Shown here: positions 1,541 to 62,192 of the stretch, in pieces
Layout: each line of letters opens with the position of its first letter
Numbering within the stretch: the stretch's first letter is position 1
Assembly (NCBI GenBank): GCA_949358305.1
Contig: OX442314.1
Coordinates: 12,214,001-12,278,000 of the forward strand
Source: Strigamia acuminata
Lineage: Eukaryota
DNA length: 64,000 nt
Direction: 5' to 3'
The notes under the pieces: generated by a model
The model's input: the letters and a program-made list of their open reading frames with translations, nothing else
Told to the model about the DNA's origin: nothing
Database searches by the model: none
Position numbers and translations under genes: made by a program

Positions 1541-2799
1541 CACCAGTCGCAATTCTGGCGTGCATGTTTGGGATGGATGCATGCAGCATCCAGCATTCAA
1601 TAGGATGCTAATCCCCTTAATCATGTAGTGTATAAATGTAACCTTGTACAGGTCGAACCTCGCTGTTACGAACAGGTTGTGGGAGCAATGAATGATTCGT
1701 ACTAGCGAGAGTTCTTACAACGAGTATTTCGTTAGAATGAATTAGTTTGTTATAACAAGAAATTTCGGAAACATGAACCCTCTTTATTATTCCCATTGGG
1801 TGAGTATAATAGTTTGTTGTTCACCCGGAATACAACTTGATGAAGGATAAAATGTGACGAATAAATAATCACCGTTACATAAGCTTACATGATTGATATG
1901 GAACGTATTTTAATTGCTTTGTAATGGAATACAGTAACTTTACTTAAGAAATGTCTTCCATATATCATCACCGGTATCATAACAAATTCCCCTTGCTGAC
2001 ATGTGAAACTCTCTTTGAAATTTTCCCACTTCCGGACACTGTATTTGAAGGCAATCGAGATACGGCTCAATCTAGGGATTACAAAAATATTAGTGAAAAC
2101 ACAAAATGTTCAATTTTTAAGTTACATCTCCTCCGTGAGTAAACATTTCGTTTTCACAGACGGAAAGTTTATTGAAAAGTGATTCTTTATCCTGTTAGTC
2201 AGTTGTACAAAAAGGTTATCTATTAGCAAATGTGAAATTTGAAAGTATCTAATACTCACATCGTGGTTGGAATAAGATTGCAATTCCTTTACGAATTTTT
2301 CATGATCAATTTGCTGGAAGTTATTATTCTGCGTATAAAAAGCAGAGAAACCATAAGACATAAAGAGAATTATTAAAAGCCTGACTTGTACTTACTATGC
2401 TGCGCGCTCTTATATGACAAACTCTGTATATGGAATAAGCAAAGTCACAATCCTGTAAGATTTAAATGAACAAATAAATTATAATTGGAAGGCAGTAACA
2501 ACATTAAGGTGACTAACTTGTAAGATAAGTTGGGTAGTACTAATTTGATGGTGCTCTACAACGTTGTAATTGAAAATTTTTCTCTAACCTGATTGGTTTA
2601 GAAGTAAGCAAGTGAATGACCTTGAAAATGGCCTTTAAGGTCAAATTTGATGACATCATTGGATTCCTCTTACCCAACTTCCTATACGATCGCTTTATCA
2701 AAGTTGGCCGAGATGCAATTGCTCAGGAAATATTTAGAGGGGACCAGACTTTTAGAACACCCTGTATAACCCCCAATTCATTTGAATAAAATTAGTTCT

Positions 2800-3866
2800 C
2801 TCCAATCGTTCTAGCATGTAATAATCGTACTTTCAGCAACATAACAACACTCCCGTTAATATTATTTTTGCTGCTCAGAACATCAATCTCACGTCCAAGT
2901 ACTCTGCTGACCGCATTCAGTGCTGTTAAGCTACTGTTGCCAACCATTCTCCTCCCACTTACTAATATTTTCAATACTATCATTGACTCGTCCACTTAAC
3001 CCATTGCCTGGAAACATTCTGCCATCACCCCTCTTTTCAAAAGTGTTGATAAATTCCTCATCTCAAACTTCCGCCCTATCCTTCTCCTCCTCCTTTATCT
3101 AAACTGGCGGATCGCTGCATCCTTTTGCAAATTTGCCCCACCATTACGAAAAATTCCTCCCTCAAATAATTTGGCTCTCACCCTGGTACCAATGCCCTCC
3201 AAATCATTCTTACACAGTACTTCAAAATCATCCGTTGTTGCAACTTGCGTTGTCACATTCACATTGCCAAAACTGATGTGTCCAAGGCTTTCGACACCCA
3301 TCTCAGTCCCACATCCTCACTTCTTTGGAAAAGCAGTCTATTGGCCTTTCCCCATTGTTGCTCGTTTCGTCTTACCTCTCCAACGGGTCGTTTCATATTG
3401 CCTCTGATCCCTGTGTTCCCCATTATCGGTGGGGTTATCCAGGGCTCCGTGGTTGGCCCTTTACTTTTCAATTCTGTTTCTAATCCTATCCTTTACCTTC
3501 TGCTAACGTCTAACATCCGCTCTTATGTTGACGATAATTTCCTTTCATGTATAACTCATACAAATTCTAGTATTAACCCCTCTGATCTTTTTTCTGCTGA
3601 TCTCTCTATCCTATCTGATTGGTATTCTGCTCATGATATGAGCCTAAACCCTACTAAAACCAAAATCACGACTTTCAAACGGACTCCTCACGCGAGGTTT
3701 TCCCACCCCACTGATTCTATTCCCATCCTTGGACTTACTCTTGGCCCACACTTGACTTTTGTCCCCCATATCTCTTACCTTCTTACTAAATTCCTTTTCC
3801 GCTCCGGGTTTATTGTTAAATACCTTCGTCGTTGTATTATCACTCGTTCCGAAATGTCAAAGTATA
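2800..3866 (+). mobile_element. Decayed non-LTR (LINE) reverse transcriptase fragment
   Basis: Motifs WKHSAITPLFK, NFRPI, DVSKAFDT, GVIQGSVVGPLLF, YVDD, MSLNPTKTK; frameshifted and deleted. Confidence 0.85.
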
Positions 3867-3868
3867 TA

Positions 3869-5962
3869 CAACTCCTTGCCAAAAAAATGGAATAATCAAT
3901 TTTTGACAATGCTTTTTCATTTTATAATTGTAATTTGAAGACGCCCATACAAAATTATGAATCGTGCTTTTAGTATATAAAACTACAATTATTAAGCTAC
4001 CATTTGGTCGAAACAGAACAATAAAGTCACTTCTGGTCGCTATTTTATTCAAATTTAAACACGGACAAAAAAATGGAATATTTTTTTTCCTGTGCCAAAA
4101 AAATAGAATAATCCAATAAAGTAATTGAATTTTGCAAATTAGTATACGCTTTACGTTAGATGACGCCATACGTACATCGCCCACACACATCTAAATATGT
4201 CTCAGCATGTCTGGCCAGTGTGAAGTTCTAATTCATGACAAACATGGGTGGCAAAAAAGACTTGTCACCTGCGACGAGAAAAGTAATTCTAAAGTTCTAT
4301 CAAGACAATAAAACGCAAGCAGAAATCGCCAAGGCTGTTAACTGTAGCCAATCTACAGTGTCAAAAGTTCTCAAACAAGTCAATTCAAATCATGGACTCC
4401 ACAACAACCGTGAAAATTGTGATAGAAAGCGCTCAACAACTGCCAGAGATGATCGAAAACTGTGCACAATTGTGAGGAAAAACCGATTTAAATTGACTTG
4501 ACAATATCATAATATGTGGAAACAGGGAAATATAGCTACTTCCCATTGCACAACTGTCCGTCGACTTCATGAACTGAACTTTAAAAGTTGTGCACCAAAC
4601 GTAAGCCACTGTTAACACAGAAGCAACGACAAAAACGAGTTAAGTGGACGTCGGAGGATTGGGCAAACGTAATTTTCAGTGATGAATCGAAGTTTTGTAT
4701 TTCATATGGTGACTGGGGTGTCACGGTTTGGAGAACAAAGGATGAGGCATATCACCGAACAACTTTAAAGCAATGTGTGAAATTTCAGTGAAGTGTGATG
4801 ATATGGGGTTGTATGTGCACACGAGGTGTTGGGCACATGACAACCATCAAGGGGACTGTTAATTCTGAAGAATATCAAGATCTACTCGAATATTTCCTAA
4901 TTCCATCTATTGAGGACCTTTTCTCCGATGATGATGATGCTGATGTCATTTTTCAGCTAGATTTGGCCTCTGCCCATGCTTCGAAATCAACCAAAGAATA
5001 GTTTGAAACACACAACTTCAATGTACTTTCAGGCTGTCATTAAAGGTCAAGTGCACTGAGTAGGATTTTTTTATTTTCTGAAAGCCCATATTAAAAAACT
5101 AATAATTATCGGGTAAAAGATTAAATTGTTTTAGTAATTATTTTATAATAACAATCCAAAAACGTAGTTAACAAAAAGCAATGCATGATGGTCGCAGACG
5201 TCTTGCCCTGCGTCATCAGTTCGAATCAGACAGTCATGCACACGCGCAGACTGACTGTCGATTCAAAATTCGATTCGTAATTTTTTAAATGATTCAAGAT
5301 TGTTCAAAAATGTTTTTTTTATTTAGCATTGATAGCAACTAGGACAAAATTATATTTTTAAGAATTTAAAATTAATCCTGTCATTGAAAAACAATGGATT
5401 GATTGAGGTCGGACATCTTGGATCCACCCAGATCCAAGAACTGGATCCAGGTCAAATGAACTTTAGAACTGACTACGTCATACTCCCATCACGCATTGCT
5501 GTTTGATTCTTACGTTTTTGGATTATTATTATAAAATAATTACCGCAACAATTTAATTTTTTTTATAATGATTATTGGTTTTTTAGTACGGGCTTTCAGA
5601 AAATGTAAAAATCCCACTCAGTGCACTTGACCTTTAAGGCAAGAGGATACCTGACCAAATATTAAGTTCTTTTCATGTGTATTTGATTATGTTTCAATAA
5701 AAATAATTACTTTATTGGATTATTCTATTTTTTTGGCACAAGAAAAAAAATATTCTATTTTTTTGTCCGTGTTTAAAGTTGAATAAAATAGCAACCAGAA
5801 GTGATTTTATTGTTCTGTTTCGACCAAATGGTCGCTTAATAATTGTAGTTTTATATACTAAAAGCACGATTCATAATTTTGTATGGGCGTCTTCAAATTA
5901 CAATTATAAAATGAAAAGGCATTGTCAAAAATTGATTATTCCATTTTTTTGGCAAGGAGTTG
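3869..5962 (+). mobile_element. Tc1/mariner transposon, decayed, with long (~255 bp) TIRs
   Basis: TIR CAACTCCTTGCCAAAAAAATGGAATAA / reverse complement; TA on the left. Transposase pieces 4235-5030 (HTH, VIFSDESKF, MIWGCM, FQLDLASAH) and C-terminus AVIKARGYLTKY* split by a MITE. The SPDLNPIE segment is missing. Confidence 0.9.
5044..5633. mobile_element. MITE with TTAA TSD (Kolobok-like ends), nested in the Tc1
   Basis: TTAA|AGGTCAAGTGCACTGAGT ... ACTCAGTGCACTTGACCT|TTAA; long imperfect TIRs. Confidence 0.8.
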
Positions 5963-6687
5963 TTATGTTATTTGTATTTTATAAGAAAATGTTTTTTCAA
6001 TTCATAAAATAAAGATTTATGCTGTTTTTTTTTCAATATTCGTTTTTATTTAGTTTATTGCTTGCTTTGTCAGGAAAGCAAACAATTTTCTAATTTTTTT
6101 ATTGGTTGTTTTGTCTGGAAAGCAGTCAAAATGTCAGCCAGTGTTTTGATCTATTTTATGGTATCACTACACAAGTCAAATGGCTCGACCAATGGAAAAT
6201 AGGCTAGAGTATAGTATACTTACTCTTTTAGCACCAACGACAGATTTGACAGCACGCCTACAAGCTTCATACATCCATTGACTCTTAAAATAAATTTTAC
6301 TGTTAGCAATGAGTTAATTATTTAATTTGTGTGTAACTAAGAAATACAACCTGCGCAATATATTTCCGCGAATTGAAGCATTCCTAAAATAAATTACATT
6401 TGTATTTACAGATTTTATAGTTTGAAATAAACGTTTAGTTTACATATACTGCAGCAAATGAGGACGAAACAGTAATAACAATGAAAATGCTCAGCAAGTC
6501 AGCATAATTCTAGAAAGCTGAAATGACAATGGTAAAAAGAAATCATTCATTACATTTGTAAAATTTCTTATGTTTGCACAGGACTTGAAAAACGTACTGG
6601 ATCCATATGGTGATTAAAAAAAGTAATTGAAAATGTAAGGTAGGTTGTTTATTCACTTACTTGTTAGCGTAGAATATAAGATTTTAT

Positions 6688-7515
6688 TTAGTAGTTTAGT
6701 TTTGGTATAACCATTTCCGGACAGTGAACTTGAAGGCAATTGTAGTACGGCACAACCTAGAGATTAAATTTTTTTAATGAAAGCACGAAATGTTCAGTTT
6801 TTAGTTACATCTCCTCCGTGAGTAAACATCTCGGATTTGCAGCTGACAAGTTTCTCGTCAAGTTGATCTACATTCTGTTAGTCAGTTGTACAAAAAGGCT
6901 ATCTAAGAGCAATAGTAAAGTTTAAAAAATCCAATACTCACATTATTGGTGGAAATTGATTTCAACAAGTCTACAAATTTTTCGTGATCAATAAACTGGT
7001 ATTTATTTTGCTGCGTATAAAAAGCAAGTTAATTGTAAGATGTAAACCGAATTATTAAAAGGTTGACTTGGACATACAATTTCGAGCGCTCTGATATGAC
7101 AAATTTCATAAAGGAAATAAGCTAACTCACAATTCTAAAATATTTAAATGAGCAATAAACTAATACGGAGTACCATAATTGATAAACAGTAATAGAACGA
7201 GAAATTTGTAGCCTACATGCATTTTTATTGAGGACTCCTCCTTGAACCATAAGTCTGCATTTTTTATGGAAAAGTTGACTCTTAAAATAAATTTTATTTT
7301 TAATAATAAGTTAATTACGTAATGTGTCATCTTCTACATAAATAAATACAACCTGCTTAATGAACAGCTTTGAATCGAAGCATTTCTAAAATAAATTAAA
7401 TTGTATTTACAGATTTTACAGTTTAGAAGTTTGAAATACAAGTACACATTCAGTTTACATATGCTACAGCAAGTGAGGAGAAAGAAGCAATAACGATGAA
7501 GATGCACAGCATCAT
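6688..7515 (-). pseudogene. 8-Cys secreted family copy B, 3'-truncated
   Basis: MMLCIFIVIASFSSLAVAY|KCFDSKLFIKQ|SQLFHKKCRLMVQGGVLNKN|NCELAYFLYEICHIRALEI|QNKYQFIDHEKFVDLLKSISTNN|NVDQLDEKLVSCKSEMFTHGGD|VVPYYNCLQVHCPEMVIPKLNY*. The last exon runs into the upstream region of copy A and loses Cys8. The intron-3 donor is GC (GT in paralog D). Confidence 0.75.
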
Positions 7516-8622: not shown

Positions 8623-9470
8623 TTAATCGTAATAATACCTCGCCCTAACACCTTCGCAAATTCCTTTTCGTGAGAGGTCATAATCTCTTCGAACATTAAC
8701 AATTTCCGGACACTGAATTTGTAAGCAATCGAAGTATTGCGTATCCTAGAGATTAAAAAAGTTATAGTAAAAGCACAAAATTGTTCAATTTTTAAGTTAC
8801 ATCTCCTCCGTGAGTAAATACATCGTTTGCACAGACTGAAAGTTTTTTTGTAAGTGATTCTTTATTCTGTTAGTCAGTTGAAGAAAAAGGTCATCTGTGA
8901 GCAATTTTTCTAAATTTAAAAACTTTCAATACTCACTTCATTGATGGAATAGGATTTAAGTAAATTTACAAATTTTGCGTGATCAATTAGCTGGGATTTA
9001 CTGTGCTGCGTGTAAAAAGCAAATCAATCGTCAGATGTAAACAAAATTATTAAAAGTTTGACTTTCTACATACTATGGCGAGCGCTCTGTTATGACAAAT
9101 TCCATAAATGAAATAAGCGAACTCACAATCCTAAAATATTTGAATGAATAACAAAGTAGTAATTGCAAAGTAAGTACGTACTTACATAATTATTGTTGAC
9201 CACAAGTTTAACTTCTTGTTTGCATTCGTTATGGATCCATTGAGCCTTAAAAAAAATTTTATTTTTAACTTTATTACGTAATGTGTCATCTTCTAAATAA
9301 ATAAATAAAACCTGTTTAATGTATATCTTCGAATCGAAGCAATCCTAAAATAAATTACATTGTATTTACAGATTTTATAGTTTGAAAGTTTGAAATAAAC
9401 GTTTAGGGTTTACATATGCTGCAGCAAATGAAGACGAAACAGTAATAACGATGAAAATGCTCAGCATCAT
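8623..9470 (-). CDS. 8-Cys secreted family copy C (intact, 154 aa)
   Basis: Exons 9470-9414, 9344-9312, 9245-9186, 9130-9074, 9005-8937, 8866-8801, 8745-8623; all GT-AG, phase 0, introns 55-70 nt. MMLSIFIVITVSSSFAAAY|DCFDSKIYIKQ|AQWIHNECKQEVKLVVNNNY|DCEFAYFIYGICHNRALAI|HSKSQLIDHAKFVNLLKSYSINE|NKESLTKKLSVCANDVFTHGGD|DTQYFDCLQIQCPEIVNVRRDYDLSRKGICEGVRARYYYD*. Confidence 0.88.
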
Positions 9471-13477: not shown

Positions 13478-15097
13478 TCAGTCGTATTGATAGCCCCTCA
13501 CTCCAATACCTTGACAAATTCCCTTTACAGAAAAATCGGATTCTCTTCGAACATTAACCATTTCCGGACAGTGAACTTGAAGGCACAACCTAGAGATTAA
13601 ATTTTTTTTTATGAAAGCACAAAATGTTCAGTTTTTAGTTACATCTCCTCCGTGAGTAAACATCTCGGATTTGCAGCTGACAAGTTTCTCGTCAAGTTGA
13701 TCTACATTCTGTACAAAAAGGCCATCTAAAAGCAATAGTAAAGTTTAAAAAATCCAATACTCACATTATTGGTGGAAATTGATTTCATCAAGTCTAAAAA
13801 ATTTTCGTGATCAATAAACTGGTATTTATTGTGCTGCGTATAAAAAGCAAGTTAATTGTAAGATGTAAACCGAATTATTATAAGCTTGACTTGGACATAC
13901 AATTTCGAGCGCTCTGATATGACAAACTTTGGTAAAACTTCATAAAGGAAATAAGCTAACGGACAATCCTGAAATATTTAAACGAGCAATAAACTAATAC
14001 GGAGTACCATAATTGATAAACAGTAATAGAACGAGAAATTTGTAGCCTACATACATATGGGCATAAATTAAAATCCCACTAAAGTGGCTTGGATTTCCAC
14101 TAAAAAAAAACTAAATCTTACACTGACTGGTTTTTCCACTATCGGTAATTTTTTGTCCCACTAATTTAACTAAGCCAAAAAAAACTATTTTTTCCACTAA
14201 AAATATTTATTTAAACCCAACTTATTTTTCCACTAAAAAAACTTATTACATCCACTTTTTCCTCTATTATGAAATGAAGGCCCGGCATCTCGACGGGGAG
14301 TCCGAGGTCTTGTTGGGACTGGGTCCCGACATGGGACTAGGACTGGGGCCTTGGCGGGGACTCGGTTGCGAGGGGCATCGAGGTCTTGTTGGGACTGGGC
14401 GGGGACTCGTTTGCAAGGGGCATTGAGGTCTTGTTGGGCCCCGACACGTGACTAAGACTGGGGCTTTGGCAGGGACTCGCTTGCGGGAGCGGATGACTGT
14501 TGGGGGGCTCGTAGACCATGCGGGGGGGATGGTTGGTCATCCTCTTTGCCCGCTGAGACGGACTTAAGGTGCAAAACGTTCGCAAAACGTTCGCAAAACT
14601 ATCTTACCAAAGTAGTAATAGTAGTGGTAAAATCAGTTTTTTCTTGCCAATTTAATTTTAGTGGAAAAAAATAGTTTTTTCGCCTTAGCTAAATTAGTGG
14701 GACAAAAAATTACCGATAGTGGAAAAATCAGTCAGTGTGAGATTTAGTTTCTTTTTAGTGGAAATCCAAGGAACTTTAGTGGGGTTTTAAATGGGACCCC
14801 ATACATATTTATTGAGGACTCCTTCTTGAACCATAAGTCTGCATTTTTGATGGAAAAGTTGACTCTTAAAATAAATTTTAATTACTTTTAACAATAAGTT
14901 AATTACGTAATATGTCATCTTCTAAATAAATAAATACAACCTGCTTAATGAACAGCTTTGAATCGAAGCATTCCTAAAATAAATTACATTATATTTACAG
15001 ATTTTACAGTTTAGAGGTTTGAAATACACATTCAGTTTACATATGCTACAGCAAGTGAGGAGAAAGAAGCAATAACGATGAAAATGGACAGCATCAT
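13478..15097 (-). pseudogene. 8-Cys secreted family copy D (close paralog of B)
   Basis: 14-bp deletion in exon 7 (TGCC microhomology), ~11-bp insertion in exon 4, MITE at the exon-3 donor, Gypsy inserted upstream. The 3' coordinate is approximate. Confidence 0.8.
14059..14799. mobile_element. Mutator-like foldback MITE
   Basis: Long imperfect TIRs with CCACTA repeats; 9-bp TSD CATACATAT; GC-rich repetitive core. Confidence 0.8.
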
Positions 15098-15241
15098 TCC
15101 AGAAAGCTGAAATGATAGAATGGTATAAATTGTACACATATAATGAATGATTTCGTATGTTTGTAGTTGTACAGTACCTCAAACGTACTGGATCCATATG
15201 GCGGTTAAAAGTGTAAGGTAGGTTGTTTAATCATTCACTTG

Positions 15242-16062: not shown

Positions 16063-16156
16063 CGTGGGGGCCTGTCCGGGATTTAGAAATAAATCTCAAA
16101 TCTGAACTTGTGATCTCTCAATAAGATAACCCAAACCGTAGAATTACCGAAAGAAA

Positions 16157-27244: not shown

Positions 27245-27291
27245 GAAAATTGAGATCGCTCCGATCCGAGATCGAAGCTGGAGGAGGGACG

Positions 27292-29083: not shown

Positions 29084-29931
29084 TTAGTCGTAAACATACT
29101 TGATGGCTCTCGCCCCTACACCTTCGCAAATTCCTTTTTTTGAGAGGTCATAATCTCTTCGAACATTAACAATTTCCGGACACTGAATTTGTAAGCAATC
29201 GAAGTATTGCGTATCCTAGAGATTAAAAAAGTTATAGTGAAAGCACAAAATTGTTCAATTTTTAAGTTACATCTCCTAGGTGAGTAAATACATCGTTTGC
29301 ACAGACTGAAAGTTTTTTTGTAAGTGTATCTTTATTCTGTTAGTCAGTTGAAGAAAAAGGTTATCTATGAGCAATTTTTGAAATTTAAAAACTTTCAATA
29401 CTCACTTCATTGATGGAATAGGATTTAAGTAACTTTACAAATTTTGCGTGATCAATTAGCTGGGATTTACTGTGCTGCGTGTAAAAAAGAAATCAATCGT
29501 CAGATGTAAACAAAATTATTAAAAGTTTGTCTTTCTACATACTATGGCGAGCGCTCTGTTATGACAAATTCCATAAATGAAATAAGCGAAATCACAATCC
29601 TAAAATATTTGAATGAATAACAAAGTAGTAATTGCAAACTAAGTACGTACTTACATAATTATCCTGGACCACAATTTTAACTTCGTTTTTGCATTCTGTA
29701 TGGATCCATTGAGCCTTAAAAAAAAAATTTATTTTTAACTTTGCTACGTAATGTGTCATCTTCTAAATAAATAAATAAAACCTGTTTAATGTATATCTTC
29801 GAATCGAAGCAATCCTAAAATACATTAAATTGTATTTACAGATGTTACAGTTTAGAAATACACATTCAGCTTACATATGCTGCAGCAAATGAGGAGAAAG
29901 CAGCACTGACGATGAAAATGAACAGCAGCAT
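29084..29931 (-). CDS. 8-Cys secreted family copy E (intact)
   Basis: MLLFIFIVSAAFSSFAAAY|DCFDSKIYIKQ|AQWIHTECKNEVKIVVQDNY|DCDFAYFIYGICHNRALAI|HSKSQLIDHAKFVKLLKSYSINE|NKDTLTKKLSVCANDVFTHLGD|DTQYFDCLQIQCPEIVNVRRDYDLSKKGICEGVGARAIKYVYD*. Confidence 0.88.
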
Positions 29932-32050: not shown

Positions 32051-32930
32051 TTAATTCATAATAGCCCTCACTCCAAGACCGATACAAAGGCCCTTTGCAG
32101 AGAAATTGTATTCGAAGCGAACATTTATCATTTCCGGACACAACTTTTCAAGACAATCGTAGTATAGTTCAGGCTAGAGATTTAAAAAAATATTAGTGAC
32201 AGCACAAAATGTTAAATTTTTCAGCTACATCTCCTTCGTGAATGAATATCTCTTTTTTGCAGGGGGCAAGTCTATTTGTAAGTGATTCTGCATTCTGTTA
32301 GTCATTTGTACAAAAACGTTATCCATGAGAAATTGTGAAATTTATAAAAAATACAATACTCACTGGATTGGTGGAATGGGATTTCATTAACGCTACCATT
32401 TTTGCGTGATCAATTTGCTGGTATTTACTTTCCTGCGTATAATAAGCAAATCAGGCGTAAGATATAAACCGAATCATTAAAAGCTTGACTTGGACATACT
32501 ATGCCGAGCAGTCTGTTATGACAAATTTCATAAACAAAATAAGCTAACTCACAATCCTGAAATATTTAAATTAACATTAATATAATAATTGAAAAGCAGT
32601 AGCAAACATGAAATATGTTCTAATGACATACAAGTACTTACAAAATCATTAGTGACTACTTTCTTAACCGCTTGTTTGCATTCTGGATGGATCAATTTAC
32701 TCTTAAATAAAATTTTGCTTTCAATAATAAGTTAATTATATAATGTGTTTATGCGTAATTAAAGAAATACAACCTGTCTAATCCAGTGGCGCGAATCGAA
32801 GCATTCCTAAAATAAATTACATTAAATTTACAGATTTTACAGTTTAGTAGTTTGAAATACACATTCAGTTTACATATGCCATTGTAAATGTCGACGAAAC
32901 AGCAATAACTATGAAAATGTGCAGCATCAT
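32051..32930 (-). CDS. 8-Cys secreted family copy F (intact)
   Basis: MMLHIFIVIAVSSTFTMAY|ECFDSRHWIRQ|SKLIHPECKQAVKKVVTNDF|DCELAYFVYEICHNRLLGI|ESKYQQIDHAKMVALMKSHSTNP|NAESLTNRLAPCKKEIFIHEGD|PELYYDCLEKLCPEMINVRFEYNFSAKGLCIGLGVRAIMN*. Confidence 0.88.
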
Positions 32931-40918: not shown

Positions 40919-41748
40919 TTAATAATTTTTGTTTTTGCAAATTCGCTTTATATGCTTTTTATAGTCAGATTGAATTTTTTTCACTTCTGGACACCTATTT
41001 TGAAGGCAAGTGAAGTATGGGTTCAGCTAGAGATTTAAAAAAATGTAAGTAAAAACACAATGTAATGTTCCATTTTTAAGTTACATCTCCTTTGTGGCCA
41101 TATCGAACTTTTGCACAGATGGCAAGTTTACTGTCGAGGTCTATTTTATCCTGTTGGTTGTGAAAAAACATTTTCTATGAGAAATTGTGAAATTAAAAAA
41201 TAATCGAATACTCACATCATGGGTGGAAAATGCTTTTATGTAATCAACGAATTTTGTGTGATCGAGTCGCTGGAATTTATTGTTCTGAAAACAAAAAGCA
41301 AATCAATCGTAAGAAATAAAGCGAATTATTAAAAGCTTGACTTGGACATACAAAGCCGTTTCTTCTATTCATGCAAATTCCATAAAGGAATTTAGCTAAG
41401 TCACAATCCTGAAACATTTAAATGAACGAGCAGTAACACAACTAGAAATATGATCTTACAACATGTAGGTACTTACATTTTTGTCTTTGTTCATAAGTTT
41501 AACATCAAGTCTGCACTCGTCATGGGTCTGTTGCATCTGAAAAATAATTTTTTTAACAATAAGTTAATTGTGTGATTAAATAAATACAACCGACGAAATA
41601 AATCTCCGCGAATCGAAGCAATCCTAAAATAAATTACATTTGTATTTACAGATTTTATAGTTTGAAAGTTTGAAATAAACGTTTAGTTTACATATGCTGC
41701 AGCAAATGAGGACGAAACAGTAATAACGATGAAAATGCACAGCCACAT
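40919..41748 (-). CDS. 8-Cys secreted family copy H (intact)
   Basis: MWLCIFIVITVSSSFAAAY|DCFDSRRFISS|MQQTHDECRLDVKLMNKDKN|DCDLAKFLYGICMNRRNGF|NNKFQRLDHTKFVDYIKAFSTHD|DKIDLDSKLAICAKVRYGHKGD|LNPYFTCLQNRCPEVKKIQSDYKKHIKRICKNKNY*. Confidence 0.88.
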
Positions 41749-46790: not shown

Positions 46791-46915
46791 CAATCTTACG
46801 GAAATGTCTTAAAGAAAGAAGAATATAGATTATTAATGACCATTGCCTAAGCTTAGGTAGTTTTAATTGTTATTGTTATGGATACATTACAGTCACTGTT
46901 AAATTATTTAATAAT

Positions 46916-47739
46916 TTATTTTTTGCAAATTTGCTTTATATGCTTTTTATAGTCAGATTGAATTTTTTTCACTTCTGGACACCTATTTTGAAGGCAATCA
47001 AAGTATGGGTTCAGCTAGAGATTTAAAAAATGTAAGTAAAAACACAATGTAATGTTCCATTTTTAAGTTACATCTCCTTTGTAGGCATATCTTAAGGGCG
47101 CACAGATAGCAAGTTTACTGTCGAGTTCTATTTTATTCTGTTGGTTGTGAAAAAACATTTTCTATGAGAAATTGTAAAATTAAAAAATTATCGAATACTC
47201 ACATCATGGGTGGAAAATGTTTTCATGTAATCAACGAATTTTGTGTGATCGAGTCGCTGGTATTTATTGTTCTGAAAACAAAAAGCAAATCAATCATAAG
47301 AAATAAAGCGAATTATTAAAAGCTTGACTTGGACATACAAAGCCGCTTCTTTTATTCATGCAAACTCCATAAAGGAAATAAGATAAGTCACAATCCTGAA
47401 ACATTGAAATGAACGACCAGTAACACAACTAGAAATATGATCTTACAACATGTAGTTACTTACATTTTTGCCGTAGGTCATAGTTTTAACAGTACGTCTG
47501 CAATTTTCATGGGTCTGTTGCATCTGAAAAATAATTTTTACTTTTAAGAATAAGTTAATTGTGTGATTAAATAAATACAACCGACGAAATAAATCTCTGC
47601 GAATCGAAGCAATCCTAAAATAAATGACATTTGTATTTACAGATTTTATAGTTTGAAAGTTTGAAATAAACGTTTGGTTTACATATGCTGCAACAAATGA
47701 GGACGAAACAGTAATAACGATGAAAATGCAAAGCATCAT
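46916..47739 (-). CDS. 8-Cys secreted family copy I (intact)
   Basis: MMLCIFIVITVSSSFVAAY|DCFDSQRFISS|MQQTHENCRRTVKTMTYGKN|DCDLSYFLYGVCMNKRSGF|NNKYQRLDHTKFVDYMKTFSTHD|NKIELDSKLAICAPLRYAYKGD|LNPYFDCLQNRCPEVKKIQSDYKKHIKQICKK*. Confidence 0.88.
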
Positions 47740-51900: not shown

Positions 51901-54900
51901 TTTTTCTTTGATTTGTTCAACGGTGTCGGGGTATTGTGTCTTCATCTCCTCCAGATGTAACTGAATCGAGTCATTCAGCAAGTAGGGGCTCGAAGAAACT
52001 CCAAAGACCACTCGAATTTGGCGCATAACTCGAGGGGTGAGGAAATCAAGTCCATTCCAATTTTCAGGTACCCACAAGAAACTCACGTAATTTCGGTCCT
52101 GGAGTCGTAACAGCAACTGTAGAAATGCCTTCTCGATGTCGGATAAATACGCGATCAACTCTCTTCTGAACAACACCAATAGCTTTAAAATTTCGGGCAG
52201 CAAATTCGGACCACTGTCCAAGCAGTCGTTTAACGACAATTCGTTTTTTCCCTTCGACGATGCATCAAAAACGATTCGAATTTTCGTGGTCGCGCGCTCT
52301 TCTCGTACGACCGCTCGATGAGGCATAAAATAGGAGTGTTCCGGGTCGTGTTCCGTAACTTCTTCAATTATTCCGTCCCTTAGCTGTTCGTCAAAAATCT
52401 TCTTATAGGACTGATAGAAGCCCGGATTTCGTTTAAATTTTCGCACAAGGTTCCAGAATCTCCGCTTTGCCACTTCATAATTATTGTTCAATTGGCTCGG
52501 ATCCACCAGCCATGGCAGTGGAACAACGTATCTGCCGTCTTCACGTGTCACCTGCTCGCGGAATCGAATGGCACACGAATTGCGGTCAGTCGACGATTCG
52601 TCTTCAGTTTCATGTCGAATCCCGATCGCTTCCAGCTCCCAAAATTTTTTCAAGCCGTCGTCCAGTCGTTCTTCGAGGCGCACGTTAAAAACTCGGGTGA
52701 CCATGGTCGAAAGAGAGACCACATTTGCAGAGGAGCCCATCAAAGTCCATCCGAATATTGTTTCAACCGCGAGTAAATCGTCCTCGACCTTTTGAATCCG
52801 CCTTGTCAGTATCTTCGCGATACAGTCCGCACCTATCAAACAAAAAATATCGAAATTAGTATATTTGTTAAATTCAACATTTATATCGTCGCGTTCTAGG
52901 GCGGCTCGCAAGCCAGCCTGCAACTCCGTTTTAATTGGCTTGGTTATCCAAGCTGTCTCGATCGCCACGATATCAATCGATCGAGTTGTGTCGTCAACAT
53001 GACACAATTTCAAGTCAAATCGACCTCTGACTACATCTTGCGGCGTTTGATTGCCAAAAGTGTGAACTGTCAAACGTTCTGTGCTTTTCTTTTCCAACTT
53101 CAAGTCTTTGGCGAGACTCGACAACACAAACGTGCTCTGACTCCCCGGATCGATTAGACATTGTATGATGGCTTCACGAGATTGAAACTTTGCTCGCACA
53201 AAAATCGTCGCCAACGTTGCAACAGGAGGAGGAGTTAACACGGGCAATTCGACGTTCGTTGACACGTGGGTGATTACTCTGTCGGGGTCTGAGTTCGATG
53301 CTCCGCTACAAACCAAGTAATTGTGATTTTTTTGGCAAAGTTTACAAGTAACACGGTAGGAACACGTTTTTGACGTGTGCCCTTTCTTCATGCACTTAAA
53401 ACATCGTCCATTTTTCATAACATATTCCCTTCTTTCAGCTAATGTGGTGGCACAACCGTCCCGTTCATGACTCTTGCTGCAAAACATGCAGTTCGAAATA
53501 GTCGTGTTTAAAATACGTGCAGACGGCGTACGATCGTTATTCTTGCGGAACGTCCTTTCTGGATCCGATTTTTCGACTTTTTCTTTTTTCTCTCCCTCTT
53601 TGGTACGGTGAAGGTCTTGGAAGTTCTCGATTTTGTTGTGATGGACCAACTCAGCACGAATCATGTTGAGAAGATCTTTAGCTTGGTACTTCCCATCCGG
53701 ATGCTGTCTGGAGAACTCCAGCGAAATCTGTTTGGGCACCAAACCCATGATGAGGGGACAAGCAGTCGCGTCGATTGCTTCGGTGTTCATCTTAGCAGCG
53801 TGCAAACCTCGGACATGAGACTCACAACGATCGTAGAGCTTCTGAAGTGGTACAGGATCCAAAATGTCGCTCACCGGCTTCATTTTCATCAACGCTCTCA
53901 TGTGAGCACTGAGAATCACGTCTGTGCGGCCATAACGCTCCACCAGCAACCCTTTTGCAATTGGATAATTTTCGTCGACGGGTGGCAGTCCCTTTAGAAC
54001 GAGCGCCGCTTCGCCATCCAGGTAGGATTTCAAATATACCAGTTTGGATTTGTTGGTAATACTTGTTTTGGAGTCAATACTAATTTCGAAATTACCCCAA
54101 AAGTCATCCCATTCAAGTGGATCGCCTCGGAACTTGATGGCTTCATACTTTGGTAACTTCATGGTCGCCTCGTGAGGAACGTTTGCTGCCCCGTGGTAGT
54201 TATTGGTGATCGGCGTGGCTGGGGGAGTAGCCGGTGGTGCGCTAATTTTTCTCAACGCCTCGTCGATTTCGACCTCACAGTCGATCGCCTTTCCGTTGTA
54301 ATTGTCTTCACATTGGGTTATTTCGGCGTCTATTTCATCCTCGTCGGTCAGCGTTGCCAGTATTCTCGCGTCGAGCACCTTCAATTCAGAAATTTTGGTT
54401 TTAAGATGTACTTTGATTTTTTTCAGATCGAGTTCGTTTAATGGTATTGTTGCGAGAATTGTCTTCGCCTTCGTGATTGTATTCGTAGCCATTCGTCTTG
54501 CCACGCTACGTTGCATTTTTACAACGCCAATTTCTTCAGCCATTTTGTATTTTCTCGAGTTCTACTTGCGGTTTTATGGATTTCAGTTCTAACGGTTCCT
54601 GGAGTTTATTTCCCGGGTTTCGGCACCAATTTCGAGACTTCGAAATAATCCAGCTGCGATTGCAGCACGCGCAAATAACAATTCGAGGTATAAAATGGAA
54701 AAACTAATTTAATCGATGATAGAAATTCTAATGAGAAGGAAACGCGTGGTATTGCGAGTCCTTGTACAAAAAAAGATGATGGTCGACCCAAAAAACGGGG
54801 TCGACTTCCGGTCAGCAAGGACCGGTCACTCAATTTACATACTAGAGGGCTCTTTTAACAGCCCTCGATAATAATAGCAAATTTCAATAATTCAAACACT

Positions 54901-55013
54901 TGTAACAAATTCAATACTCAATAAATTCAAAGTAAACAAACATTTCGACTAATTTAAACTAACATAAAAATTAAAATCAACATTTAAAAACATTTAAATC
55001 AACAGATTTTACA
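48917..55013 (-). mobile_element. Full-length BEL/Pao LTR retrotransposon
   Basis: 384-bp LTRs (54630-55013, 48917-49300), apparently identical; TSD AGTTT; PBS TGGTGCCGAAACCCGGGA (tRNA-Phe); empty site in the paralogous block at ~12137. Confidence 0.96.
49339..54543 (-). CDS. BEL/Pao Gag-Pol (1734 aa, intact)
   Basis: DUF1759-type gag, three Cys/His knuckles, LIDPGSQ protease, RT FYVDD, FCDAS RNase H, GVDFAGP/SDNA integrase. Confidence 0.95.
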   Translation of the reverse strand: MAEEIGVVKMQRSVARRMATNTITKAKTILATIPLNELDLKKIKVHLKTKISELKVLDARILATLTDEDEIDAEITQCEDNYNGKAIDCEVEIDEALRKISAPPATPPATPITNNYHGAANVPHEATMKLPKYEAIKFRGDPLEWDDFWGNFEISIDSKTSITNKSKLVYLKSYLDGEAALVLKGLPPVDENYPIAKGLLVERYGRTDVILSAHMRALMKMKPVSDILDPVPLQKLYDRCESHVRGLHAAKMNTEAIDATACPLIMGLVPKQISLEFSRQHPDGKYQAKDLLNMIRAELVHHNKIENFQDLHRTKEGEKKEKVEKSDPERTFRKNNDRTPSARILNTTISNCMFCSKSHERDGCATTLAERREYVMKNGRCFKCMKKGHTSKTCSYRVTCKLCQKNHNYLVCSGASNSDPDRVITHVSTNVELPVLTPPPVATLATIFVRAKFQSREAIIQCLIDPGSQSTFVLSSLAKDLKLEKKSTERLTVHTFGNQTPQDVVRGRFDLKLCHVDDTTRSIDIVAIETAWITKPIKTELQAGLRAALERDDINVEFNKYTNFDIFCLIGADCIAKILTRRIQKVEDDLLAVETIFGWTLMGSSANVVSLSTMVTRVFNVRLEERLDDGLKKFWELEAIGIRHETEDESSTDRNSCAIRFREQVTREDGRYVVPLPWLVDPSQLNNNYEVAKRRFWNLVRKFKRNPGFYQSYKKIFDEQLRDGIIEEVTEHDPEHSYFMPHRAVVREERATTKIRIVFDASSKGKNELSLNDCLDSGPNLLPEILKLLVLFRRELIAYLSDIEKAFLQLLLRLQDRNYVSFLWVPENWNGLDFLTPRVMRQIRVVFGVSSSPYLLNDSIQLHLEEMKTQYPDTVEQIKEKFYVDDLLDSMRTEERVLTIFHEARELMMKAHMPLRKWHSNSQRLREIFAKEIPEDSKLMDSDKHQTTVLGLVWDYVADTLQLEIGEWAEEKIVAGEGSKRKIVQSVAKIYDPLGFASPFAIIGKLMFQELWARNIGWDNALPPDVAKQWAHWFEQIVLLRKISVGRPYSLNLDDKSQQELHFFCDASPKAYGVVLYVRTKNGHTVDVSLCLSKSRVAPLKSLTLPKLELMSALLLSRIATKIQVLGVQRVFYWTDSSITYFWIREQQKKSNPFVANRVREIRANTDVARWRHCPGKVNPADKLTRGMEAEKLINDFEWWNGPEWLKKSEAHWPQGLENSDDNVEEFEEVEIQINLTRSQKKMDPIFDVEKFGSWNRGIRITAWILRFVRNARKRQSFVGPIKAREVEEAENYWFGFMQRSKFAEEMHNLQNEVKLNKNSPLSEMSIAVDENGLLRINSRIRHHAGAKDFIIPIILDASSPLTRLIIQDCHKRALHGGLGDTLAEFRSRYWAQRARKLVKTFVAKCITCRRINAKLMTQAIGLLPADRINRAAPFQIIGVDFAGPLYTRNGEKAYIALFTCAVVRAVHLELVSDLTTEKFIMAFKRLISRRGIPSIVYSDNAKTFKRAEKDLALFINEFSGEQLQGFLSQHKIQWKFIVELAPWWGGFWERLVKTVKLSLKKVLGRSSLCFEELTTVLTEVEAVINSRPITYVTDNPEEREPLTPSHFLIGTRITSLPDIYSSECQVNNSKRPELVKRWKLRQRLINLLWRRWSHEYLVELREFRHVRASREIQVEDLVLIQEQGQPRLTWKTAKVFETFVGRDGKIRSCKLLLPGGKILRRPVQRLCSLEVSE

Positions 55014-56187: not shown

Positions 56188-57038
56188 TTAATAATCTATT
56201 TTTTTGCAAACTCGCTTTATATGCTTTCTATAGTCATCTTGAATATCTTTCACTTCTGGACACCTATTTTGAAGGCAATCGAAGTATGGGTTTAGCTAGA
56301 GATTTAAAAAATGTAAGTAAAAACACACAATGTAATGTTCCATTTTTAAGTTACATCTCCTTTGTAGTCATATCTAACTTTTGCACAGATAGCAAGGTAC
56401 GTTATTGTCGAGTGTTGATTTACTCTGTCGGTTAAGAAAAATTTTTCGAGGGGAAATTGTGAAATTATAAAATAATCGAATACTCACATCATGGTGGGAA
56501 AAGTATATTATGTGCGCAACGAATTTTGTGTGATCGAGTCGCTGGACTATATTGTTCTGAATATAAACATCACATCAATCCTAAGACATAAAACAAATTA
56601 TTAAAAGCTTGACTTGGACATACAAAGCCGCTTTTTCTATTCATGCAAACTCCATACATGAAATAAGATAAGTCACAATCCTGAAACATTTAAATGAACG
56701 AGCAGTAACACAACTAGAAATATGATCTTACAACATGTAGTTACTTACTTTTTCGCCGTAGGTCATAGTTTTAACAGTACGTCTGCAATCTTCATGGGTC
56801 TGTTGCATCTGAAAAACAAATTTTACTTTTAACAATAAGTTAATTACATAAAATGTTATTGTGTGATTAAAGAAATACAACCGACGCAATAAATTTCCGC
56901 GAATTGAAGCAATACTAAAATAAATTACATAGTATTTATAGATTTTACAGTTTAAAGGTTTTAAATGAACATTCAATTTACATAAGATTCAGCAAATGAG
57001 GCCGAAACAGCAATAACTAAGAAAATCCACAGTATCAT
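56188..57038 (-). pseudogene. 8-Cys secreted family copy J
   Basis: All 7 exons are present (exon 1 MILWIFLVIAVSASFAESY). A net +4 bp insertion in exon 6 (~56396-56402) shifts the frame to a TAG. Confidence 0.8.
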
Positions 57039-58329: not shown

Positions 58330-59414
58330 CTAACGCTTGCAAATTCGCTTTATATGCTTTTTATAGTCAGCTTGAATATCTTTCACTTCTGGACACCTAT
58401 TTTGAAGGCAATCGAAGTATGGGTTCAGCTAGAGATTAAAAAAATTTAAGTAAAAAGACATAATGTAATGTTCAATTTTTAAGTTACATCTCCTTTGGTG
58501 TCAAATCTTACGGTATCACAGATGGAAAGTTTATCCTCGAGTGTTGCTTTAGCCTGTCGGTTGTGAAAAAAAATTTTATATGAGAAATTGTGAAATTAAA
58601 GAATAATTGAATACTCACATCATCGGTGGCAAAAAATTTTATGTACGCAACGAATTTTGTGTGATCGAGTCGCTGGAATTGATTGTTCTGAATATAAAAA
58701 GCAAATCACTCGTAAGACATAAAGTGAATTATTAAAAGCTTGACTTGGACATACAAAGCCACTTTTTCTATTCATGCAAACTCCATACATGAAATAAGAG
58801 AAGTCACAATCCTAAATGAATGAGCAGTAACACAACTAGAAATATGATCCTACATCATGTAGATACTACTTACTCTGCCTTTGCTCATTTTGGTCATATA
58901 TTTAACAGCATGTCTGCAATCTGCATGGTTCTGTTGCATCTGAAAAATAAATTTTACTTTTAACAATAAGTTTATTTCATATACTACGTTTACATGCATC
59001 GAATAATTCGAGTTGGGTTTACATGCTGAAAATAATTCGGGGTTATTTTCATTTTTCGACCAATGGGAAAGTGCCAGAAGCAATGCGAGTTCACTCGAAT
59101 TAAACAACCTTCTGCGAGGGATTATTCACTACTCGAATAATCCGAATAATCCTGTTTACATGCCAGTTGTGCACACGGAATATTTTGTCTCACTCGAAAT
59201 ATTCCATGCGTGTAAACATAGTAATAATATGTTATTGTGTGATTAAAGAAATACAACCAATGCAATAAATTCCCGTGAATTGAAGCAAACCTAAAATAAA
59301 TTACATAGTATATACAGGTTTTACAGTTTAAAAGTTTAAAATTAACATTCAGTTTACATAAGATTCAGCAAATGAGGCCGAAACAGCAATAACTAAGAAG
59401 ATCCACAGCATCAT
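58330..59414 (-). CDS. 8-Cys secreted family copy K (intact; MITE in intron 2)
   Basis: MMLWIFLVIAVSASFAESY|VCFNSREFIAL|MQQNHADCRHAVKYMTKMSKGR|DCDFSYFMYGVCMNRKSGF|NNQFQRLDHTKFVAYIKFFATDD|AKATLEDKLSICDTVRFDTKGD|LNPYFDCLQNRCPEVKDIQADYKKHIKRICKR*. Confidence 0.86.
58983..59223. mobile_element. MITE in intron 2 of copy K
   Basis: TIR TACTACGTTTACATGCAT.. / ..ATGCGTGTAAACATAGTA. Confidence 0.75.
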
Positions 59415-61336
59415 TGTAGGAGGCTGAAATGTGAGAATTGTATAAATGTTTGCAAATATAAAGAATGATTTTTTGCTATTTTTATATACAGGATTTCAAA
59501 CGTAGTGTGGATTCAGTGGTGATTAAAAAAAAGAAATTAAAAGTGTAAGGTATGTATTTATTCTTTATTTATTTAGGGTAGAATATAAGATTTCATTTAG
59601 TTGTTTTAGCACAATGGGACACTTGAATTACATAATTTCTTGCGTATAGTTAATGCGGTTAATGTAAGATAAGCTATAAACATCGAATTTCAATAATTAA
59701 ATATTTAAATCCTGTATGTAAGGAATGGTATAGTTTGAACTTATTATTTTACAGCATTTAATGAAAGCTTATTTTTTAATTTTTTTAATTTTAATTTTAC
59801 AGAGATTGGCCCGCAAAACATAATTTTTTTCCAATTTTTAAATTACTAAAATTACAAAACATATTGATTAAAACGAAGTTGTTGAGCACCAGGCCAGGAG
59901 TGACTGATGCATCTAACAGTATTAACCATGCAGGATGGCTACCATCTTGCATCGAAAATAACACCATGGTGTTGTATTTGAATTATGCTAGAAATGGCAA
60001 TTTCGTAAAGATTGAGCAAAAATTTTGAATATAACACCACTTCAGCTACGAAACGCTGGACGCAACAAACAATCTCCAAAACACACAAGAGACACAATGG
60101 TTTAGTTTGGTAAGCTTTATTGTTTTCTAGGGATATGATTCAGGTGTCCCACAGTGTATTTCCCAATGTAATAGCTGCATGGCCACCGTTCCTGATTCGA
60201 AGACGTGGCACGGCGGCCATTGGCCGCATGACAAGCATTGTCAGAGTTTCAGTGAATAGAGAGGTTCTGCCAGGCGTTAAGCATAGTACTCATGAGCACT
60301 TTCCTATGGCGGAAATCAGTCTGCCCACAGAAATTTGCCAACAGAAAATATTGGTACTCACACTTTTTATTCCTGTCTTGGAATGTCTGTGAGATGACCT
60401 CTATCCCACAGAAAAATTACATTTCTGGCAGGTCAATACAGCGAAAAGCCAACCTTCGTTTCCAAGCACAGAAACTTCTGTTGGCAAACAAAATAATGAC
60501 CGATCGTAATCGGTCTTTAGTATTTGTGACCGGTTGTATTTTTCTTAATCGGTTGCGTTTTTTTTAACCGGTTACAAAAATGGCAGCGCTTATTTCTGGC
60601 GACAGCATGGATCGAAGCATGGATCCAATTTATCCAAGAAAGAAAAATACACGTTAAGTAATGACAAAATCACAACAATATCTTGAATAAACTCATCTTC
60701 GCTAGAATCCTTATCTTCCATTATTACGTTCTGTTGTACGATTACGTTCTGTTGTACGATTACGTTCTGTTGCACGAGCTGCGAATGAAATCTGGCATCC
60801 ATTTTAGTCAAAAGTTGCCGACAGGTGGCGCTAATGTTTGCCATTTATTCCTTTCTGTTGCATAGGCTGTGAGTATTGTAAAAAGTCTGGTGTGACAGAC
60901 TTGTACGTACATATTCTGCCACTAGGTGATTCTGTCATGTCTATACACACAAAAGTCTGTGGGCATACAGTTCTGTGGGCAAATGATCTTATGAGTCCTA
61001 AGCTGTAGACAGGAACGGCTGACGCCTGGAAAGCGGAAACGTCATCACTTTTTGTGCTGACGTCATGGGGCGAAGCTAAGTTTTACGTTGCGCGCGTGGT
61101 CATTGTCGTTTGCAACGTGTAATGGCGGGTTCAGACGTTCTTGGAGAACGTGTAATTAATTTGTCATTCATTTTGAAGGAATATTCACAGAGTATTTAAT
61201 TGCCATTTGAAGAAATATAAAATGTGACGAATAAATAATGACCATAACACAAGCTTCCGAAATTTATGTAGAATTATATTTTAAATGGTTTGTAAGGGAT
61301 ACAACACAGTCGTTTTTATTTCCGAATAATAATATT

Positions 61337-62192
61337 TTATTCATTCTTTCTACACACTTGCAATACCGCATCCATGTAGTCAGCTCGAGTAGCTTCGAAC
61401 TCTGGACACTTATCTTCAAGGCAATCGAAGTACGGGTGCATCTAGAGATTTAAAAAATATTAGCATACAAACATATAATACAACGTTCAATTTTTAAATT
61501 ACATCTCCTTCGCTAATGTATACTTCGTTTGCACAGATGGCAAGTTTCTTTTCGAGTGAATGCTTATTCTGTTAGTCAGTTGTACAAAAAGATTATCTTT
61601 GAGCAATTGTAAAATTTAAAAAAATAATACAATACTCACAGATTTAGTGGCATGTAATTTTAAGAACTCTACATATTTTTTATGATCGAGTTGCTGGTAT
61701 CTGTCGTACTGCATGTAAAAAGCAAAGCATAAGCACACAAATATACAAACCGAATTATTAAAAGCTTATCATACTGTGCCGCGCCTTCTGTTGAAACAAA
61801 CTCCATACATGAAATAGGCGAAGTCGCAATCCTGAAACGTTGATATACGAACAAGCAGTAGAACAACAAGAAATATGTTCTTACAACATATAGGTATACT
61901 TACATCTTTGATATTTGCTATACTGTTAACAAAACGTTTGCATTCGTCATGGAATGGTCGAACCTTAAAATAAATTTTACTTTTAACGATAAGTTAATTA
62001 CAAAATGTGTTATTGTGTAAGTAAAGAAATACAACCGTCGAAACATATTTTTGCGGATCGAAGCATTCCTAAAATAAATTACATTGTAATTACAGATTTT
62101 GCAGTTTAAAAGTTTGAAATAAACGTTCAGTTTACATATGCTGCTGCAAATGAGGACGAAACAGCAATAACTAAGAAAATCCACAGCATCAT
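61337..62192 (-). CDS. 8-Cys secreted family copy L (intact)
   Basis: MMLWIFLVIAVSSSFAAAY|ECFDPQKYVST|VRPFHDECKRFVNSIANIKD|DCDFAYFMYGVCFNRRRGT|YDRYQQLDHKKYVEFLKLHATKS|NKHSLEKKLAICANEVYISEGD|MHPYFDCLEDKCPEFEATRADYMDAVLQVCRKNE*. Confidence 0.88.

What the first reader, a model, noticed from the sequence alone, without database searches (positions are those of the whole stretch)
1940..62192. Hidden tandem array of 12 micro-exon genes for a secreted 8-cysteine protein family
Seen: a ~850-bp unit recurs 12 times on the minus strand and splices (GT-AG, 55-70 nt introns in copy C) into a 19-aa hydrophobic leader plus ~125-138 aa. The scaffold C-X16-C-X13-C-X9-C-X41-C-X16-C-X4-CP-X16-C is conserved (small indels in G and K), as are CF[DN], [IL]DHxK and GD. 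Eight copies are intact. None appears as an ORF in the track. Inference: size, leader-only first exon, phase-0 introns and the 'C..(K/R).G....lD..Kf' and 'YFDCL' segments recall the helical odorant-binding-protein fold. However, the classic C2-X3-C3 and C5-X8-C6 spacings are absent, so this may be an undescribed carrier, gland-secretion, venom or effector family.
Basis: partly seen in the sequence, partly recalled or inferred. Interest (0 to 1): 0.9.

Follow-up and report, generated by a model that had tools for sequence, protein, structure and literature searches.

The report
Centipede odorant-binding-like gene array
Twelve neighbouring small-exon genes (eight intact), likely from a soil centipede, encode predicted secreted eight-cysteine proteins whose closest relatives were already catalogued in 2018 as odorant-binding-like, so this is a fast-diverging new batch of a known but untested family that likely carries small oily molecules.

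Summary
In detail: 12 minus-strand copies of a seven-exon gene, 8 intact, 48 of 48 introns GT-AG and phase 0, and the stated cysteine scaffold. It is not an undescribed family. An exon-7 profile found two Strigamia maritima proteins, 38-51% identical over the mature chain. They are letter for letter SmarOBPl2_3 and SmarOBPl2_4 among the 21 centipede OBP-like proteins of PMC5952958. Six cysteines map by spacing onto the mite OBP frame (C1-C6, C2-C3, C4-C5), not the insect one; C3 and C8 are extra. Neither homolog hits Pfam PBP_GOBP, and the fold tests were inconclusive (pLDDT 45 and 58). New here are the full gene models and diversifying selection (M1a/M2a 2dlnL 20.2; 0 of 80 null simulations reached it), concentrated in exons 2-3. 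Best reading: secreted carriers of small hydrophobic ligands, evolving by birth and death; tissue unknown, gland secretion slightly favoured over antennae. Splicing and expression are untested. The scan has noted similar OBP-like arrays in three other genomes. Verdict: new members of a known kind.

The parts
1940..6507 (-). Copy A, broken: exons 1-3 at 6507-6224, 3.7-kb insertion in intron 3, exons 4-7 at 2452-1940; exon 1 has no in-frame start
6688..7515 (-). Copy B, broken: exon 7 cut short after the CP motif where it runs into the upstream module of copy A; GC donor at intron 3; 7 cysteines
8623..9470 (-). Copy C, intact, 154 aa; exons 9470-9414, 9344-9312, 9245-9186, 9130-9074, 9005-8937, 8866-8801, 8745-8623
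13478..15097 (-). Copy D, broken: frameshifts in exons 4 and 7, about 0.8-kb insertion in intron 3, Gypsy element in its upstream module
29084..29931 (-). Copy E, intact, 157 aa; 87% identical to C
32051..32930 (-). Copy F, intact, 154 aa
33872..34695 (-). Copy G, intact, 145 aa, 10 cysteines; closest to S. maritima T1ILH9 (53% whole chain)
40919..41748 (-). Copy H, intact, 149 aa, basic (pI about 9.3)
46916..47739 (-). Copy I, intact, 146 aa; 80% identical to H
56188..57038 (-). Copy J, broken: frameshift in exon 6
58330..59414 (-). Copy K, intact, 148 aa; 318-nt intron 2, two extra codons in exon 3
61337..62192 (-). Copy L, intact, 148 aa
9471..9930 (-). Conserved non-coding upstream module (shown for copy C; the proximal 300 bp or so align in all 8 intact copies); likely promoter or 5' UTR
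   Evidence: function inferred

Best explanation
The array holds twelve copies of a seven-exon gene whose predicted products are homologs of the OBP-like proteins catalogued in the centipede Strigamia maritima, and they likely work as secreted carriers of small hydrophobic molecules. Shown: the gene copies, a 19-residue hydrophobic leader on its own exon, the eight-cysteine scaffold, the homology, four decayed copies and diversifying selection in exons 2-3. Inferred: (1) the leader routes the protein to secretion; (2) six cysteines pair as in mite OBPs (here C1-C7, C2-C4, C5-C6) around a helical cavity; (3) the two extra cysteines, C3 and C8, pair and pin an added C-terminal helix near the loop after helix 1, where the mite structure is open, and so may act as a lid; (4) fast change in helix 1 and that loop retunes what each copy binds; (5) the array grows by tandem duplication and loses copies to frameshifts and insertions. 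The site of action is not shown. I put an exocrine or reproductive secretion at about 45% and sensillum lymph at about 35%.
For: Homology: an exon-7 profile gave 4 hits among 1.84 billion proteins, two of them S. maritima. The 8-copy mature profile scores those two at E 2.7e-24 and 6.2e-32, 38-51% identity; the other two hits get no such support. Both are in the OBP-like FASTA of PMC5952958. Cysteine frame: gaps C1-C2-C4-C5-C6-C7 are 16/23/41/16/4, against 19/26/42/20/8 in Varroa OBP1 (computed from the bridge positions in PMC8222343). SmarOBPl2_5 has 16/18/41/16 (counted by eye). The S. maritima homolog P0004 has 17,17,9,41,16,4. ESM Atlas feature neighbours are PBP/GOBP clusters for both homologs (0.81 and 0.77; leads only). 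Both models are all-helical. A leader-only first exon with a phase-0 intron and clustering are usual for insect OBP genes (PMC2722677 passages). Selection: M1a vs M2a 2dlnL 20.2, p 4e-5; M8a vs M8 19.4; similar with F61 frequencies; 0 of 80 null simulations reach the observed value; exons 2-3 alone give 28.1, and 24.4 without the indel zone. For a gland role: GOBP-type proteins occur in the defensive leg secretion of the centipede Lithobius (PMC11170834); median pairwise dN/dS is 0.77, high compared with antennal OBPs as I recall them.
Against: Neither homolog hits Pfam PF01395 at E up to 10, and no OBP appears in PDB sequence searches. The Atlas scores are under 0.9, a level that shuffled proteins reach about a third of the time for 0.8. 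The Atlas structure search listed no OBP. The 2018 OBP-like label is itself a similarity-based assignment, and its authors do not exclude convergence. The C6-C7 gap is 4, not 8. Disulfide pairing, the lid helix and ligand binding are all inference. Mite OBPs bound test ligands only moderately. The selection test uses paralogs, my own codon-model script and naive empirical Bayes. Exon 1 shows signs of exchange between copies (C-I leader dN 0.047 against mature 0.52), and the exon blocks were chosen after seeing the site posteriors.
Confidence: 0.7

Rival explanations
1. Same family and fold, but a true olfactory or gustatory role: the proteins fill the lymph of antennal sensilla and carry soil odours or pheromones to receptors, the array widening the ligand range.
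For: PMC5952958 proposes this role for OBP-like proteins and cites expression in chelicerate chemosensory appendages. Clustered expansion is typical of insect OBPs.
Against: No expression data exist here. Spider OBP-like genes are broadly expressed (PMC5381604 passage). High dN/dS and the basic pI of H, I and K are unlike most antennal OBPs as I recall them.
Confidence: 0.3
2. A venom component: an OBP-fold protein recruited into the forcipular venom, diversifying against prey targets.
For: It is secreted, cysteine-rich, tandem and positively selected, and protein change outruns intron change in 26 of 28 pairs. GOBPs are reported in several insect venoms (PMC11170834). The sequences of the S. 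maritima venom peptides GEOTX01 and CHILOTX01 were not visible to me, so identity with them is not excluded.
Against: The family list for centipede venoms in PMC6878950 names no OBP family, and 'odorant' does not occur in its text or in the held supplement. GEOTX01 is listed as one contig rather than a family. Short introns are constrained by splice signals, so they are a poor neutral yardstick.
Confidence: 0.08
3. An independent centipede family of helical, disulfide-rich secreted proteins (for example glue or cuticle proteins) that was swept into the OBP-like list by weak iterative similarity and has another fold.
For: No Pfam or PDB sequence match to OBPs. The only relatives found are in S. 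maritima. Geophilomorphs release a sticky proteinaceous secretion (PMC6023451 passage).
Against: Three cysteine gaps equal those of SmarOBPl2_5 (by eye), the founding S. maritima OBP-like protein of PMC5381604. The 41-residue gap recurs in a Lithobius GOBP (by eye). The two Atlas feature searches both rank PBP/GOBP first.
Confidence: 0.1
4. A decaying duplicated region whose copies are no longer expressed.
For: 4 of 12 copies are broken, the region is rich in retroelements, and overall dN/dS is near 0.8.
Against: All 8 scaffold cysteines, the open frames and the splice sites are kept in 8 copies at 37-87% identity (range from the 7 copies other than L). About a quarter of codons sit at omega 0.07.
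Confidence: 0.03

Closest known systems
Strigamia maritima OBP-like proteins (21 sequences, supplement of PMC5952958), above all SmarOBPl2_3 = SMAR001808 = T1ILH9 and SmarOBPl2_4 = SMAR003207 = C-terminus of T1IQ96
   Same: Direct homologs: 38-51% mature identity, same leader, same cysteine scaffold and CP motif. In the tree both fall in the C/E/F/G half of the array (97/97 support). By eye four more of the 21 (2_1, 2_2, 2_6, 3_12) belong to the same subfamily.
   Different: The published models look incomplete: a 13-residue gap in T1ILH9, a fusion in T1IQ96, truncations in others. The window gives eight full models, at most 53% identical to the two tested, and so probably comes from another species. 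In the passages I read the paper does not describe the eight-cysteine subfamily, its gene structure or selection.
Chelicerate OBPs: Varroa VdesOBP1 (PDB 7NZA, PMC8222343) and Tetranychus TurtOBP1-4 (PMC8269058)
   Same: Secreted, helical, with a six-cysteine frame of similar spacing, an N-terminal cysteine and a late cysteine that would close the chain ends.
   Different: Two extra cysteines, every gap 1-4 residues shorter, a predicted added C-terminal helix; no direct sequence hit; chelicerates hold only 1-4 copies.
Classic and minus-C insect OBPs (Pfam PF01395)
   Same: Size, leader-only first exon with phase-0 intron, tandem clusters; two of the inferred bridges correspond to insect C1-C3 and C4-C6 (correspondence from PMC8269058).
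   Different: No C2-X3-C3 or C5-X8-C6, and no Pfam hit for the two homologs.
GOBP-type proteins in the telopodal defensive secretion of Lithobius forficatus (PMC11170834)
   Same: Centipede, secreted, OBP-type, 41-residue gap between two core cysteines (by eye).
   Different: Not shown to be orthologs; four family motifs were absent from the held supplements.

Membership tests
Myriapod/chelicerate OBP-like | Sequence homology to catalogued members | tested here: met
   E 2.7e-24 and 6.2e-32 for the mature profile against two proteins listed as SmarOBPl2_3 and 2_4
Myriapod/chelicerate OBP-like | N-terminal signal peptide, no membrane helix | tested here: met
   8 of 8 have a hydrophobic core (9-residue KD mean 2.8-3.4), at most 1 charge in residues 1-19, and a mature 19-residue maximum under 0.75; hydropathy only, SignalP not available
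Myriapod/chelicerate OBP-like | Mature length about 120-140 aa | tested here: met
   126-138 aa
Myriapod/chelicerate OBP-like | Six-cysteine frame of the mite type | tested here: met
   Gaps 16/23/41/16/4 against 19/26/42/20/8 in VdesOBP1; mapping by spacing, with two extra cysteines
Myriapod/chelicerate OBP-like | Disulfide pairing C1-C6, C2-C3, C4-C5 | not testable with these tools
   Needs mass spectrometry or a confident structure
Myriapod/chelicerate OBP-like | Five-helix OBP-related fold with a cavity | tested here: inconclusive
   Models of a homolog at pLDDT 45 and 58 are all-helical but too poor to compare
Myriapod/chelicerate OBP-like | Binding of small hydrophobic ligands | not testable with these tools
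   Bench assay needed
Classic insect OBP (PF01395) | C2-X3-C3 and C5-X8-C6 spacing | tested here: not met
   No X3 or X8 gap in any of the 8 intact copies
Classic insect OBP (PF01395) | Pfam PBP_GOBP match | tested here: not met
   No hit for the two S. maritima homologs or for 8 exon stretches; the window's full spliced proteins were not scanned
Classic insect OBP (PF01395) | First intron in phase 0 at the signal-peptide boundary | tested here: met
   8 of 8; feature from PMC2722677
Plus-C insect OBP | Classic six cysteines plus extra cysteines and a proline after C6 | tested here: not met
   A CP motif is present, but the classic core spacing is absent; the proline criterion is recalled
Centipede venom families (GEOTX01, CHILOTX01, SLPTX) | Presence in the venom proteome, homology to venom sequences | tested here: inconclusive
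   The held supplements list families and contigs but no matching sequences, and both were cut when stored
Schistosome-type micro-exon genes | Most coding exons very short (about 6-36 nt, recalled) and symmetrical | tested here: not met
   Exons are symmetrical, but only 1 of 7 is 36 nt or shorter

The most novel reading that the evidence does not exclude
A soil-centipede subfamily of OBP-like proteins has gained a fourth disulfide and a C-terminal lid helix and left the antenna for the defensive sternal-gland secretion. There it binds and holds the aromatic cyanogenic compounds reported in geophilomorph glue, with the cavity mouth diversifying under positive selection. That would be a chemosensory-type fold turned into a chemical-defence carrier, and a third disulfide architecture beside those of mites and insects.
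Probability: 0.15. Interest if true: 0.65.

Novelty: new member of a known kind. Interest (0 to 1): 0.36.

Why it matters
PMC5952958 flagged the unusually large OBP-like repertoire of S. maritima as needing further study, but its models for this subfamily look fragmentary. This array supplies eight complete gene models, a predicted disulfide scheme and a short list of fast-evolving positions (alignment columns 30, 36, 41, 44, 47, 50, 98, 142). That makes two open questions testable: whether myriapod OBP-like proteins share the mite or the insect fold, and whether they serve smell or secretion. It also shows a kind of gene family that ORF scans and automatic annotation miss. It is not a new kind of system.

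Full report
Observation. The window (40% GC) holds AT-rich stretches with a repeated unit, separated by retroelements. Projecting the exon boundaries of copy C onto the other units gave seven coding exons per copy. A nucleotide profile of each exon finds exactly 12 matches, all on the minus strand. Eight copies splice into open frames of 145-157 aa; 48 of 48 introns are GT..AG and every exon is a multiple of three, so all introns are phase 0. The cysteine gaps are 16,13,9,41,16,4,17 in 6 of 8 copies, with a longer second gap in G and K. Four copies are broken (A, B, D, J). Residues 1-19 are hydrophobic and nearly uncharged in 8 of 8, and the mature chains have no long hydrophobic stretch. The proximal upstream region is conserved across the intact copies, and each has an AATAAA or ATTAAA within 200 nt of the stop (common in AT-rich DNA, so weak). 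Splicing itself is a prediction; the reads available cannot test it.

What it is. A profile of ten exon-7 translations searched against 1.84 billion representative proteins returned 4 hits. Two are Strigamia maritima proteins, T1ILH9 and the C-terminal part of the fused model T1IQ96. With the full 8-copy profile they score E 2.9e-32 and 3e-41, and 2.7e-24 and 6.2e-32 without the leader; mature identity is 38-51% and 41-48%. The other two hits were dropped as repeat-driven. T1ILH9 and the T1IQ96 tail are letter for letter SmarOBPl2_3 (SMAR001808) and SmarOBPl2_4 (SMAR003207) in the OBP-like FASTA of PMC5952958, which reports 21 OBP-like genes in S. maritima, 19 of them new. By eye, four more of the 21 share the subfamily's motifs; I could not align those. 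The family was thus catalogued in 2018. The host is likely a geophilomorph centipede: the only homologs found are from S. maritima, and the window carries a remnant of an MBD-bearing Copia element (Pfam MBD E 1.2e-6 next to SH3_retrovirus E 1.8e-21), a family reported from Strigamia and Stegodyphus spiders (PMC6673714). The modest identities suggest another species, or genes missing from the old annotation.

Is it an OBP? It is not a classic insect OBP: there is no X3 or X8 gap, and the two homologs hit no PBP_GOBP model. It fits the non-insect frame. Varroa OBP1 has bridges 21/141, 41/68 and 111/132 (PMC8222343), that is gaps 19/26/42/20/8; leaving out C3 and C8, ours are 16/23/41/16/4. SmarOBPl2_5 (SMAR010094, one of the first S. 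maritima OBP-like proteins) has 16/18/41/16 by my count. ESM Atlas features rank PBP/GOBP clusters first for both homologs, at 0.81 and 0.77, which the tool calls leads only. AlphaFold models of the T1IQ96 stretch are all-helical with a helix after the CP motif, but confidence is low (pLDDT 45 and 58), so the fold test is inconclusive. The last cysteine of that stretch comes from a mis-joined exon of the public model, so the models cannot speak to C8. Membership of the OBP-like group rests on homology to listed members and on cysteine spacing. That the group is homologous to insect OBPs is the published view, with convergence not excluded.

Evolution of the array. The tree has two halves, (C,E,F,G) and (H,I,K,L), with both S. 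maritima proteins in the first (97/97; the four broken copies were left out). The halves follow position in the array, as local tandem duplication would give. Pairwise dN/dS has median 0.77, above 1 in 4 of 28 pairs, and dN exceeds intron divergence in 26 of 28. A codon site model on 127 mature codons favours a class at omega about 3 (27% of sites; 2dlnL 20.2, p 4e-5). The result holds with F61 frequencies (21.2), with M8a/M8 (19.4) and without the indel zone (15.5), and none of 80 simulations under the null reached the observed 19.6 (maximum 6.9). By block, exons 2-3 give 28.1, exons 4-5 give 2.0 and exons 6-7 give 0. The block trees are broadly alike, which argues against recombination inside the mature region as the cause. 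Caveats: paralogs only, my own implementation, naive empirical Bayes, blocks chosen after seeing the posteriors, and evidence of exchange in exon 1.

How it likely works. Shown: gene structure, leader, scaffold, homology, selection pattern. Inferred: secretion; pairing C1-C7, C2-C4 and C5-C6 by analogy with mite OBPs; C3-C8 as a fourth bridge. In Varroa OBP1 the cavity is wide open because a loop replaces the insect helix 2. Here C3 follows the equivalent loop and C8 ends an added helix, so that helix could close the gap, and 6 of the 8 sites with posterior above 0.9 lie in helix 1 and that loop. I read this as a set of carriers with diverging cavity mouths. Where they act is unknown. GOBP-type proteins occur in the defensive secretion of Lithobius (PMC11170834), and some geophilomorphs release sticky cyanogenic secretions with aromatic compounds (PMC6023451). 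Together with the high dN/dS this tips me slightly to a secretion over the antenna. Venom has no positive support, but the relevant S. maritima venom sequences were not in the supplements I could see.

Novelty. These are new members of a known kind. Searches for centipede OBP-like studies found no description of this eight-cysteine subfamily's structure, gene architecture, expression or selection; most subscription papers are outside that library. Earlier notes of this scan describe similar OBP-like arrays in three other genomes; they are unchecked, and I had found the 2018 supplement before seeing the closest one.

What I saw of each paper. PMC5952958: passages, section 17, supplement parts 1, 3 and 4 of 153. 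PMC11170834: passages, section 7, supplement search rows. PMC6878950: passages, supplement part 45 and search rows (file cut when stored). PMC5381604, PMC8222343, PMC8269058, PMC6673714, PMC6023451, PMC2722677: passages only. All other papers: search listings only. Statements on typical antennal OBP dN/dS and pI, the Plus-C proline and micro-exon sizes are recalled and come from no call.

Noticed in passing
window 15242-28112 (+): Recent full-length Gypsy-type LTR element (826-bp LTR match 99.8% identical, TG..CA ends, 4-bp target duplication) in the upstream module of copy D. Besides gag (1051 aa) and pol (1380 aa) it carries a third 933-aa ORF at 24443-27244 with no Pfam hit.
   Followed up: partly
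window 35305-40200 (+): Recent Copia element with a 1247-aa pol frame, LTRs 99.6% identical and an apparent 5-bp target duplication, just upstream of copy G.
   Followed up: partly
window 48917-55013 (-): Bel-Pao element with an open 1740-aa frame and 384-bp LTRs 100% identical; about 40% identical to arachnid and fish elements in the region searched.
   Followed up: partly
window 45634-46869 (-): Remnant of an MBD-bearing Copia element directly downstream of copy I, of the kind described in PMC6673714.
   Followed up: partly
window 3868-5963: 266-bp inverted repeats (96.6%) flanking about 2.1 kb, next to a reverse-transcriptase fragment at 3170-3895, inside intron 3 of copy A; likely a non-autonomous DNA transposon nested in a LINE remnant.
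   Followed up: no
window 1391-1538 and 34972-35294: Copies of the conserved upstream module: an orphan below copy A with no exons after it, and the module of copy G separated from its start by about 270 extra bases.
   Followed up: partly
exon 1 and upstream regions of C, H, I: Leader and upstream DNA of C are far closer to H and I than its mature exons are (leader dN 0.047 against 0.52 for C-I), suggesting gene conversion or a recombinant origin.
   Followed up: partly
P0004 (T1IQ96): The public S. maritima model fuses Sushi/Ig, SET-MYND and OBP-like genes, with pieces of further OBP-like copies at its end, which hints at a similar tandem array in that genome.
   Followed up: partly
window 62990-63200 and 30920-31630: Short simple tandem repeats giving spurious repetitive ORFs.
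   Followed up: no
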